From: a virus
Length of the DNA stretch: 64,000 bases
Direction: 5' to 3' (one strand)
IMG/VR virus record: IMGVR_UViG_3300044712_002679
Coordinates: 116,406-180,405 of that record
Shown: piece after piece, positions 63,320-64,000 of the stretch
Layout: the number at the start of each line of letters is the position of its first letter
Numbering within the stretch: the stretch's first letter is position 1
Notes under the pieces: model-generated
Told to the model about the DNA's origin: nothing
The model's input: only the letters and a program-made list of their open reading frames with translations
The model's database searches: none
Translations under genes and position numbers: made by a program

Positions 63320-64000
63320 ATGATAAGACAAGACATAAAATTTGATTTTGATGATATTTTAATTGTACCAAAAAATCAAAGTTCAATAGATACAAGAAGC
63401 ATTATTAATGTGTATGATGAAAATGAAATGCTTCCATTATTTACAGCACCAATGGATACTGTTGTTGGAAATAAAAATATGGAAATATTTAAACAAAATA
63501 AAATATATCCAATAATACCTAGAACATATAAGCTATCATTTGGACCAGGTACTAATGATTCTTGGATTGATGAATGGGTGGCATTAGGGTTAAATGATTT
63601 TGAAAAATTATTAAATATCACTAATCCATATTTTGATTTAGATCATGTTGATACCAAATATATTCTTATTGATATTGCCAATGGTAATATGAAAAAAATG
63701 CATGATTTAATTGTAAAATCAAAAAATATTTATGGTGATAAATTACAATTAATGGTTGGTAATGTCGCTAATCCTGAAACATATAAAATAGTATCAGAAT
63801 TAGGTGCTGATTATGTGCGAATTGGTGTGGGTAATGGTGGTGGGTGTTTTGTAGAAAACACAAAAGTTATAACTAAAAGAGGAATTATAAATATTCAAGA
63901 TGTCATAATTGGTGATGAAGTATTAACCCACACTGGTGAATATAAGAGAGTATATAATACAATATCATATGAAACTTTTGAAGATTTAATTCAAATTAAT
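63320..64000 (+). CDS. GMP reductase/IMPDH-family enzyme (GuaC-like, no CBS domains) interrupted by an intein at the catalytic cysteine; 3'-truncated by window end
   Basis: [44 protein letters not shown] then [31 protein letters not shown] (Hint block A) instead of the expected TTR. Confidence 0.7.
   Translation, partial: [227 protein letters not shown]

What the first reader, a model, noticed from the sequence alone, without database searches (positions are those of the whole stretch)
63320..64000. Intein inserted at the catalytic cysteine of a GMP-reductase-like gene
The ORF has the IMPDH/GMPR TIM-barrel signature in order, without CBS domains, so it is GuaC-like: [43 protein letters not shown]. 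At the point where the catalytic Cys should be followed by TTR, the sequence continues [36 protein letters not shown]. This is a classic intein N-terminal splicing block: Cys1, then hydrophobic-Thr, then GD.V. The intein therefore sits exactly at the active-site nucleophile, the typical location for inteins. The window ends inside the intein.

This adds a sixth selfish element. It should be counted with the five free-standing homing endonucleases.
Basis: partly seen in the sequence, partly recalled or inferred. Interest (0 to 1): 0.65.

Follow-up and report, generated by a model that had tools for sequence, protein, structure and literature searches.

The report
Split intein in a fractured GMP-reductase-like gene
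The intein is real and sits right at the enzyme's catalytic cysteine, but it is a naturally split intein of an already described kind: the gene is broken into two separate genes with a free-standing homing endonuclease gene between them.

Summary
An ORF starting at 63320 encodes 175 aa of an IMPDH/GMPR-type barrel, then Cys plus an intein N-terminal splicing region from 63845.

- An identical database protein (P0001) is only 278 aa, so the ORF stops 51 codons beyond the window.
- A contig identical to the window's last 985 nt shows what follows: a 103-aa N-intein, three in-frame TAA codons, and a 341-aa free-standing Vsr-like/EDxHD homing endonuclease gene.
- A separate gene in another frame then encodes a 45-aa C-intein (…IIVHN) fused to the rest of the enzyme, beginning [12 protein letters not shown].

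Joining the two exteins reproduces uninterrupted homologues exactly ([19 protein letters not shown]). The +1 Cys aligns with the catalytic Cys of human GMP reductase.

The intein is 36% identical (E 9e-27) to the tested IMPDH-1 split intein from the "fractured genes" of Dassa et al. 2009. It differs in two ways: the insertion lies two residues downstream (+1 is the catalytic Cys, not Ser), and the endonuclease has a different N-terminal region.

Relatives in large phage-like contigs show the same layout. This is a new member of a known kind and of modest interest.

The parts
63320..63844 (+). N-extein: residues 1-175 of an IMPDH/GMP-reductase-like TIM-barrel protein, ending ...[14 protein letters not shown].
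   Evidence: Translation. Pfam IMPDH E 1.5e-13. PHROG 9582 'dehydrogenase' E 3.6e-23. 71% identical to the N-part of the uninterrupted homologue P0009.
63845..64000 (+). First 52 of 103 residues of the N-intein (Int-N) of a split intein. It carries Cys1 (63845-63847) and block A, [10 protein letters not shown]...GDEVLTHTG. The ORF continues outside the window to a TAA at extrapolated 64154-64156.
   Evidence: Hint_2 28.4 bits, E 2.5e-6. P0001 is 100% identical and 278 aa long. Contig L002 matches window 63016-64000 with 0 mismatches in 985 nt. 36% identity to the IMPDH-1 split intein, E 9e-27.
64000..64000 (+). Pointer to the rest of the element, which lies beyond the window. Coordinates are L002, and window = L002 + 63015. 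(a) Rest of Int-N: 986-1138, with stop 1139-1141. (b) 48-nt spacer, 1142-1189, with a hairpin and a conserved TATATACAATAAA motif. (c) Free-standing EDxHD/Vsr-like homing endonuclease gene, 1190-2215 (341 aa; extrapolated 64205-65230). (d) Int-C, 45 aa, 2199-2333 (extrapolated 65214-65348), overlapping the endonuclease gene's end by 17 nt. (e) C-extein, 191 aa, 2334-2909, starting with the catalytic Cys.
   Evidence: Gene layout. TIGR01443 intein_Cterm 32.9 bits against a cutoff of 15.6. 3r3p_A (I-Bth0305I) E 1.3e-5 with the single sequence and 9.6e-7 with a profile. P0121 and P0189 are 100% identical, each with a reported longest contig of 501,337 nt, the same length as for P0001. Hairpin z = -4.3. 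Conserved motif.

Best explanation
The window ends inside the 5' half of a 'fractured gene'. An IMPDH/GMP-reductase-like enzyme of a very large AT-rich phage is encoded as two genes.

- Gene 1 encodes the N-extein (175 aa) plus a 103-aa N-intein.
- Gene 2 encodes a 45-aa C-intein plus the C-extein (191 aa).
- Between them lies a free-standing 341-aa homing endonuclease gene of the Vsr-like/EDxHD family.

Inferred mechanism, by homology with the experimentally tested IMPDH-1 split intein:
1. The acidic N-intein (net charge -12) and the basic C-intein (+3; +5 in its first 25 residues) associate into one HINT fold.
2. Cys1 makes the N-S acyl shift.
3. The +1 Cys, which is also the enzyme's catalytic cysteine, attacks in trans-thioesterification.
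4. The terminal Asn cyclises.
5. The result is a 366-aa enzyme with the loop [12 protein letters not shown] restored.

The enzyme can be active only after splicing. The endonuclease is inferred to cut intein-less alleles near the junction in co-infecting relatives, so that repair copies the whole cassette (Int-N, endonuclease gene, Int-C) into them.

Shown: the gene layout, the motifs, the homologies, the exact junction, and recurrence in relatives. Inferred: splicing, endonuclease activity, homing, and the enzyme's substrate.
For: **1. The ORF ends early.**
- P0001 is 100% identical over all 227 visible residues and is 278 aa long.
- L002 overlaps the window with 0 mismatches in 985 nt and shows the layout: N-half, 341-aa ORF, C-half.
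- P0001, P0121 (C-half) and P0189 (endonuclease) each report a longest contig of 501,337 nt.

**2. It is not contiguous.**
- In-frame TAA codons sit at L002 1139, 1157 and 1178.
- The C-half is in a different frame.

**3. All splicing residues are present.**
- Cys1, block B TLDH (intein residues 57-60), ...IIVHN, and +1 Cys.
- TIGR01443 intein_Cterm scores 32.9 bits against a cutoff of 15.6.

**4. Homology to a tested split intein.**
- The joined intein is 36% identical (E 9e-27) to IMPDH-1 across both halves, with the break at the same place.
- The IMPDH-1 sequence comes from the supplement of PMC7090010.
- IMPDH-1 trans-splices quickly in experiments (PMC11168065).

**5. The junction is exact.**
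- N-extein plus C-extein gives [19 protein letters not shown], identical to the uninterrupted 353-aa homologue P0009.
- The in-silico spliced CDS is 84.6% identical in DNA to P0009's gene.

**6. The +1 Cys is the catalytic Cys.** It aligns with the Cys of GPGSVCTTR in human GMPR1/2 (2ble, 2a7r).

**7. The endonuclease looks intact.**
- Its C-terminal domain matches I-Bth0305I (3r3p), E 1.3e-5 and 9.6e-7.
- D276, E286, H293 and D302 align with D196, E206, H213 and D222; D288 occupies the position of N208.
- JGI calls it a very-short-patch-repair endonuclease, and a distant relative carries PF04480.

**8. The arrangement recurs.**
- Four relatives have the same N-half, endonuclease, C-half order, with the endonuclease gene's end overlapping the C-half's start.
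- Every split N-half among the retrieved proteins (55 once two truncated uninterrupted proteins caught by the filter are removed) starts its intein with Cys and has TxxH.
- 23 of 23 C-halves end their intein with HN followed by C or S.

**9. It matches a published class.** Dassa et al. 2009 described IMPDH genes fractured by split inteins with an intervening Vsr-like endonuclease (PMC2677866).
Against: - No experiment here shows splicing, endonuclease cleavage or enzyme activity.
- The downstream 1.9 kb comes from another assembly (Logan SRR26046407), not from the window. It is identical over 985 nt, and all three proteins report the same longest-contig length.
- The Hint N-terminal models alone are only at or below curated cutoffs: Hint_2 at 28.4 (cutoff 28.4) and TIGR01445 at 16.3 (cutoff 24.5).
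- The insertion point differs by two residues from IMPDH-1 (GGG/SIC).
- No NUMOD3 motif is detected in this endonuclease.
- One relative (L006) has its endonuclease gene broken into three ORFs, so endonuclease activity is not universal.
Confidence: 0.9

Rival explanations
1. One reading: a contiguous (cis-splicing) intein, possibly with a nested endonuclease domain, inside a single GuaC-like ORF.
For: - The N-terminal splicing block follows the extein directly in frame.
- The endonuclease ORF happens to be in the same frame as the N-half (coordinates).
Against: - Three in-frame TAA codons separate the N-intein from the endonuclease ORF.
- The C-intein ORF is in a different frame and overlaps the endonuclease ORF's end by 17 nt.
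- Gene callers on three independent assemblies give 278-, 341- and 236-aa products.
- The N-inteins of 55 homologues all end at the same place (about 100-104 aa...LLxE...), as does IMPDH-1.
- TAA is the dominant stop codon in the window: 40 of 52 ORFs of at least 150 aa that have a stop.
Confidence: 0.02
2. A decaying remnant: the gene was broken by endonuclease insertion, and the halves are non-functional pseudogene fragments that no longer splice.
For: - One relative (L006) has a fragmented endonuclease gene.
- No functional data exist.
Against: - Both halves are full-length, and every splicing residue is intact here and in all surveyed homologues.
- The exteins remain 71% (N) and 91% (C) identical to an uninterrupted homologue.
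- The intein halves have complementary charge.
- The related IMPDH-1 pair splices efficiently (PMC11168065).
Confidence: 0.05
3. A Hint or bacterial intein-like (BIL) domain used for autoproteolysis or another non-splicing role at the end of a truncated dehydrogenase.
For: The best PDB sequence match of the joined intein is a bacterial intein-like domain (2lwy, E 0.0024).
Against: - A partner gene supplies a C-intein with a canonical HN/+1 Cys and the exact remainder of the enzyme.
- Excision restores the uninterrupted sequence residue for residue.
- Similarity to a true split intein is far stronger: E 9e-27.
Confidence: 0.02
4. An assembly artefact joining unrelated pieces.
For: L002 and L003 both start exactly inside a 51-nt tandem duplication just upstream.
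Against: - The same three genes are found in a JGI assembly and two Logan assemblies.
- The same architecture is found in diverged relatives from other samples.
Confidence: 0.01

Closest known systems
IMPDH-1 split intein and the IMPDH 'fractured gene' loci from GOS metagenomes (Dassa et al. 2009, PMC2677866). Splicing was characterised by Carvajal-Vallejos et al. 2012, as cited in PMC11168065 and PMC7090010.
   Same: - Same host family (CBS-less IMPDH/GMPR-like).
- Same order: N-half, free-standing Vsr-like endonuclease gene, C-half.
- Homologous intein: 36% identity, E 9e-27, broken at the same intein position (101/40 aa against 103/45 aa).
- Acidic N-intein and basic C-intein.
- Hairpin and a promoter-like AT motif in front of the endonuclease gene.
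   Different: - The insertion point is two residues further downstream. IMPDH-1 is GGG/SIC, with +1 Ser and the catalytic Cys at +3. Here it is [10 protein letters not shown], with +1 as the catalytic Cys.
- The endonuclease lacks detectable NUMOD3 repeats. It has instead a Cys/His-rich N-terminal region (CxxC...HxxxxH, CxCGCG).
- Both alleles coexist in the family: 40 'site b' and 17 'site a' N-halves among the retrieved proteins.
I-Bth0305I, prototype of the EDxHD (Vsr-like) homing endonuclease family (PDB 3R3P; Taylor et al. 2011, PMC3239194).
   Same: The C-terminal nuclease domain aligns (E 1.3e-5 and 9.6e-7) and has the active-site Asp, Glu, His and Asp conserved.
   Different: - I-Bth0305I sits in a group I intron of phage recA and has NUMOD repeats.
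- This one is free-standing between split-intein halves and has a different N-terminal region.
- The position of Asn208 is Asp here.
Cyanobacterial DnaE split intein (Npu/Ssp DnaE).
   Same: A naturally split intein. The two extein halves are separate genes joined by trans-splicing, with a +1 Cys.
   Different: - The DnaE halves lie far apart in the genome with no endonuclease gene between them.
- Different host protein.
- No detectable sequence match in the PDB search.
Bacterial and human GMP reductase (GuaC, GMPR1/2).
   Same: - The spliced protein aligns end to end: NF003470 positions 3-345 of 347, and 2ble E 3e-28.
- No CBS domain.
- The Cys-x-Thr catalytic loop and the GVGYP and ADGG motifs are present.
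   Different: - Only 122.6 bits against an equivalog cutoff of 397.
- About 25 extra residues lie between ESAGE and FRGMS.
- The substrate is untested.

Membership tests
Intein (HINT protein-splicing domain) | Block A: Cys or Ser as first intein residue, directly after the N-extein. | tested here: met
   Cys176 of the ORF (nt 63845-63847) starts the Hint_2 match, E 2.5e-6 and 28.4 bits, equal to the cutoff.
Intein (HINT protein-splicing domain) | Block B: TxxH. | tested here: met
   TLDH at intein residues 57-60, just beyond the window end, read from P0001/L002. All homologous N-inteins have TxxH on inspection.
Intein (HINT protein-splicing domain) | Blocks F and G: C-terminal His-Asn followed by a Cys, Ser or Thr at +1. 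| tested here: met
   The sequence reads ...[22 protein letters not shown]. TIGR01443 scores 32.9 bits against a cutoff of 15.6.
Intein (HINT protein-splicing domain) | Removal restores the uninterrupted host protein. | tested here: met
   GVGNGGG plus [12 protein letters not shown] equals the sequence of P0009 (353 aa). 84.6% DNA identity over the spliced CDS.
Intein (HINT protein-splicing domain) | Protein-splicing activity. | not testable with these tools
   Needs co-expression plus Western blot or mass spectrometry.
Naturally split intein in a 'fractured gene' (Dassa et al. 2009) | N- and C-intein parts encoded by separate ORFs. | tested here: met
   Stop at L002 1139, followed by two more in-frame TAA codons. 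The C-half is in another frame. Separate gene products of 278 and 236 aa.
Naturally split intein in a 'fractured gene' (Dassa et al. 2009) | A free-standing homing endonuclease gene between the halves. | tested here: met
   341-aa ORF at L002 1190-2215, Vsr-like/EDxHD.
Naturally split intein in a 'fractured gene' (Dassa et al. 2009) | Same insertion point as the described IMPDH-1/2/3 alleles (GGG/SIC). | tested here: not met
   Here the junction is GNGGG/CLT, two residues downstream in an ungapped alignment with the GxGxGxxC loop. It is therefore a different intein allele in the same host family.
Naturally split intein in a 'fractured gene' (Dassa et al. 2009) | Opposite net charges on the two intein parts. 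| tested here: met
   N-intein -12; C-intein +3, and +5 in its first 25 residues. IMPDH-1 is -9 and +3.
EDxHD / Vsr-like homing endonucleases | Vsr-like nuclease domain with conserved catalytic Asp, His and Asp (plus Glu). | tested here: met
   Aligned to 3r3p. D276/D196, E286/E206, H293/H213 and D302/D222 are conserved; D288 replaces N208. An upstream conserved ExEFFN may correspond to E170; that is inference.
EDxHD / Vsr-like homing endonucleases | N-terminal NUMOD-type DNA-binding repeats (common in the family but not strictly defining). | tested here: not met
   No NUMOD hit at E <= 1. The site-a relative L008 does have NUMOD3.
EDxHD / Vsr-like homing endonucleases | Site-specific cleavage of the intein-less allele. 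| not testable with these tools
   Needs an in vitro cleavage assay.
GMP reductase (GuaC) equivalog | Score above the curated NCBIfam equivalog cutoff. | tested here: not met
   The spliced protein scores 122.6 bits on NF003470 (cutoff 397) and 121 on TIGR01305 (cutoff 492).
IMPDH/GMPR superfamily (PF00478) | Pfam domain above the gathering score, with the catalytic Cys loop present. | tested here: met
   138.1 bits against 25.6 for the spliced protein. The Cys aligns with the GPGSVC of GMPR.
   In-frame stops and a frame change.

The most novel reading that the evidence does not exclude
Homologous split inteins occupy two positions only two codons apart in the same active-site loop. One position has +1 Ser or Cys; the other, as here, has the catalytic Cys itself as +1. 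Each position comes with a different endonuclease DNA-binding module. This could be a live example of an intein 'hopping' to a neighbouring site through endonuclease exchange or retargeting. A further possibility is that using the catalytic Cys as the splice nucleophile, with the endonuclease gene behind a hairpin and a late-promoter-like element, makes formation of the purine enzyme conditional on infection stage or redox state.
Probability: 0.12. Interest if true: 0.55.

Novelty: new member of a known kind. Interest (0 to 1): 0.3.

Why it matters
- **Annotation.** The finding corrects an easy error. The 'truncated' dehydrogenase genes of 260-280 aa and 225-236 aa that recur in huge-phage contigs are two halves of one trans-spliced enzyme.
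- **Known class, new setting.** It extends the IMPDH fractured-gene class, so far known from a few GOS fragments, to near-complete giant phage genomes. It also adds a second insertion allele, in which the +1 nucleophile is the enzyme's own catalytic cysteine.
- **Practical use.** IMPDH-1 is one of the fastest split inteins used in protein engineering. The roughly 55 natural N-halves and 23 C-halves retrieved here, with a +1 Cys context, are a ready pool of candidate orthogonal split inteins.
- **Endonuclease.** The associated subfamily (37 proteins found, apparently tied to this locus) is a compact EDxHD variant with a new DNA-binding region.
- **Limit.** None of this changes current understanding of inteins.

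Tried and rejected
- **Megablast of window 62000-64000 against deposited phages:** no match. The genome is not in that collection.
- **The search for related loci in IMG/VR with P0001:** no confirmed relative.
- **Structure prediction of the fused N+C intein:** I did not model the halves separately because that would not test the HINT fold.
- **tblastn of the endonuclease against the window:** only chance-level hits, E >= 2. None of the window's other endonuclease candidates is a paralogue.
- **tblastn of the endonuclease against deposited phages:** only a 26% coverage N-terminal match in another huge phage, LR756508.1.
- **Motif TATATAMAATAAA as a general promoter of this genome:** 13 matches against 7.8 expected, not significant. 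It appears to be specific to the endonuclease leaders rather than genome-wide.
- **Spacer hairpin:** significant here (z -4.3) and in L008 (z -2.6), but not in L007 or L006. It is suggestive only.
- **Pfam scan of ten neighbouring ORFs:** gave almost no context. It found only an ATP-grasp R2K protein and a PEMT/ICMT-like methyltransferase.
- **Rejected models:** contiguous intein, BIL domain, pseudogene and assembly artefact (see the rival explanations).
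Full report
**1. Observation**

The ATG at window 63320 opens an ORF that runs to the window end, with 227 codons visible. Pfam places an IMPDH/GMP-reductase domain on residues 110-193 (E 1.5e-13) and a Hint domain from residue 176. The 52 intein residues alone score 28.4 bits on Hint_2 (E 2.5e-6), exactly at the gathering score. NCBIfam gives GMP reductase models as the best hits and a weak intein_Nterm match. 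PHROGs gives the phage 'dehydrogenase' family 9582. The N-extein ends with Gly175 (63842-63844), and the intein Cys1 is at 63845-63847.

**2. What lies beyond the window**

A protein search found P0001, which is 100% identical over all 227 residues but only 278 aa long. The ORF therefore stops 51 codons past the window, after a 103-aa intein fragment. That is too short for a complete intein and lacks the C-terminal HN.

A contig carrying P0001 (L002, Logan SRR26046407, 6.6 kb) overlaps window 63016-64000 with 0 mismatches in 985 nt. I use it as the continuation, with window coordinate = L002 + 63015. It shows the following:

| Feature | L002 coordinates | Notes |
|---|---|---|
| N-half | 305-1141 | ends in a TAA |
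| Spacer | 1142-1189 | 48 nt, with two further in-frame TAA codons |
| 341-aa ORF | 1190-2215 | free-standing endonuclease gene |
| 236-aa ORF | 2199-2909 | different frame; overlaps the previous ORF by 17 nt |

The 236-aa ORF reads [61 protein letters not shown]... Its first 45 residues are a C-intein: NCBIfam intein_Cterm TIGR01443 scores 32.9 bits against a cutoff of 15.6. The rest is the second half of the IMPDH/GMPR barrel (PF00478, E 3.8e-22).

Proteins identical to the C-half (P0121) and to the middle ORF (P0189) exist in the database. Each reports a longest contig of 501,337 nt, the same as P0001. All three genes therefore very probably sit together on one half-megabase JGI contig, which is presumably the source of the window.

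**3. It is a split intein and the excision is exact**

Joining the N-extein and C-extein gives ...[26 protein letters not shown]... The uninterrupted 353-aa homologue P0009 reads ...[26 protein letters not shown].... The in-silico spliced CDS is 84.6% identical in DNA to the P0009 gene. The 45 nt on each side of the junction are 90% identical, with a 38-nt identical run just 3' of the junction. That run is a plausible endonuclease target, although this is inference.

All canonical splicing residues are present: Cys1, block B TLDH (intein residues 57-60), block F/G ...VYDLSVED...IIVHN, and +1 Cys. The N-intein is strongly acidic (net -12). [quoted passage not shown]

**4. Position relative to the active site**

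The spliced protein aligns with human GMPR1 (2ble, E 3e-28) as [26 protein letters not shown] against [26 protein letters not shown]. By established knowledge of GMPR and IMPDH, the Cys of GPGSVCTTR is the catalytic nucleophile. The intein is therefore inserted immediately N-terminal to the catalytic Cys, and that Cys serves as the +1 splice nucleophile.

The placement 'at the catalytic cysteine' is right, but the residue assignment is not.

**5. Closest known system**

Dassa et al. 2009 (PMC2677866) described 'fractured genes' in GOS metagenomes. In these, conserved enzymes, including three IMPDH loci, are broken by a split intein with a free-standing GIY-YIG or novel Vsr-like homing endonuclease gene between the halves. 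The arrangement is found mainly in phage.

The IMPDH-1 split intein from that study is one of the fastest trans-splicing inteins known (PMC11168065). Its sequence and native junction GGG/SIC are given in the supplement of PMC7090010. The joined intein here is 36% identical to joined IMPDH-1 (E 9e-27). The alignment runs through both halves and places the break at the same spot. This locus is therefore a relative of a described and experimentally validated system.

**6. Differences from IMPDH-1**

*a. Insertion point.* IMPDH-1 is G-G-G|S-I-C, with +1 Ser and the catalytic Cys at +3. Here the junction is G-N-G-G-G|C, two residues downstream. The retrieved family contains both alleles:
- 40 N-halves end GxGxGxG| (site b, as here).
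- 17 N-halves end GxGxG| (site a).
- 19 C-halves start C-L/S-T (site b).
- 4 C-halves start S/C-G-C-L-T (site a).

Inteins at the two sites are homologous. Our N-intein averages 57% identity to site-b inteins and 49% to site-a inteins.

*b. The endonuclease.* Its C-terminal domain matches the I-Bth0305I nuclease domain (3r3p), the prototype of the EDxHD/Vsr-like family. The match is E 1.3e-5 with the single sequence and 9.6e-7 with a three-sequence profile. Using the D196A/H213A mutations of the crystal construct as register marks, D276, E286, H293 and D302 align with D196, E206, H213 and D222, and D288 occupies the position of N208.

The N-terminal 230 residues have no NUMOD3 hit. They carry CxxC...HxxxxH and CxCGCG motifs that are conserved in the orthologous endonucleases of L007 and L006. 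A site-a relative (L008) has instead a NUMOD3-repeat Vsr-like endonuclease, as Dassa et al. reported for IMPDH-1 and IMPDH-2.

Only 37 homologues of this endonuclease were found among 5.8 billion proteins. Most are about 340 aa. JGI annotates several as very-short-patch-repair endonuclease, and several have the same reported contig lengths as split N-half homologues. This suggests a lineage tied to this locus.

**7. Recurrence**

Four diverged relatives were examined: JGI contigs of 59,663 and 263,616 nt, a Logan contig of 12,856 nt, and an ENA contig of 345,367 nt for which only gene coordinates were available. All have N-half, intervening ORF(s), C-half, with the intervening ORF's end overlapping the C-half's start by 25-26 nt, against 17 nt here. 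In L006 the endonuclease gene is broken into three ORFs, as expected late in a homing cycle.

Among the roughly 188 best family members retrieved, about 97 are uninterrupted (344-378 aa), about 55 are split N-halves and about 25 are split C-halves. None is long enough to hold a contiguous intein.

The best tblastn matches in deposited phages are uninterrupted genes in 460-640 kb 'huge phages' and Lak megaphages. The window itself is 22-31% G+C.

**8. Leader of the endonuclease gene**

The 48-nt spacer folds into an 11-bp perfect stem whose 3' arm contains the endonuclease AUG. It has z = -4.3, and 1 of 200 shuffles folds as well. A motif TWWATATATA(C/A)AATAAA lies 10-25 nt upstream of the endonuclease ATG in all four loci, even where the endonuclease's N-terminal domains are unrelated. 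The motif is not enriched in the window as a whole.

This resembles the hairpin and late-promoter-like elements (TATAAATA) that Dassa et al. found in front of fracturing endonuclease genes. I treat it as suggestive only, because two of the four hairpins are not significant.

**9. The enzyme**

The spliced 366-aa protein matches GMP reductase models end to end (NF003470 positions 3-345 of 347), but at 122.6 bits against a cutoff of 397. It has no CBS domain. It has the Cys-x-Thr loop and a short flap-equivalent region without the IMPDH Arg-Tyr dyad; that last point is my reading of the alignment combined with textbook knowledge. It also has about 25 extra residues after ESAGE. 'GMPR-like member of the IMPDH/GMPR superfamily, substrate untested' is as far as the evidence goes.

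**10. Verdict**

The element is a split intein in a fractured gene with its own Vsr-like/EDxHD homing endonuclease, and it is a relative of the published IMPDH-1 system. It is a new allele with a new insertion point, a +1 catalytic Cys and a different endonuclease DNA-binding region, so it is a new member of a known kind.

Architecture, motifs, homology and recurrence are shown. Trans-splicing, homing and substrate are inferred.

Noticed in passing
window 62938-63045: A 51-nt unit is repeated 2.1 times in tandem at 98% identity. It spans the stop of ORF 62632-62970 and the start of ORF 63028-63303, so the sequence '...ATGAAAACAGTTAAAACA' occurs twice. The independent contigs L002 and L003 both begin at window 63016, inside the second copy, so assemblers break here. 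It could be a real duplication or an assembly stutter.
   Followed up: partly
L002 1160-1195 (extrapolated window 64175-64210); also window 381-393: The motif TATATA(C/A)AATAAA is conserved upstream of the endonuclease ATG in four fractured loci. Its single exact copy in the window (381-393) lies 9 nt upstream of the ATG of a 463-aa ORF (402-1793) that has no family match. It is not enriched genome-wide: 13 matches against 7.8 expected.
   Followed up: partly
L006 5353-6612: In a relative from JGI sample 3300013137, the orthologous endonuclease gene is split into three ORFs (169, 87 and 178 aa), while both intein-extein halves stay intact. This looks like an endonuclease decaying after fixation.
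   Followed up: partly
P0113/P0160 (contigs up to 425,361 nt); P0136: Public records name fractured halves of this gene as 'IMP dehydrogenase' of a Candidatus Pacearchaeota archaeon MAG and of Candidatus Muirbacterium. The 263-425 kb contigs with phage-like content suggest huge-phage contigs binned into cellular MAGs.
   Followed up: no
window 58155-59207 and 61287-61730: Two neighbouring ORFs have family matches: an ATP-grasp of the R2K clade (PF18299, E 1e-10) and a small membrane PEMT/ICMT-like methyltransferase (PF04191, E 9e-7). Most other neighbours in 51-63 kb have no Pfam match.
   Followed up: no
whole window: Among ORFs of at least 150 aa, stop codons are TAA 40, TGA 11 and TAG 1. 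The three genes of the locus have A/T-only leaders with no Shine-Dalgarno-like sequence. GC skew switches sign near 40 kb, together with the coding strand.
   Followed up: no
L002 3055-3882 and 3935-4351: Downstream of the C-half lie a 275-aa ORF with a weak PHROG match to single-strand DNA-binding protein (E 1e-5) and a YqeY-like (PF09424) ORF.
   Followed up: no
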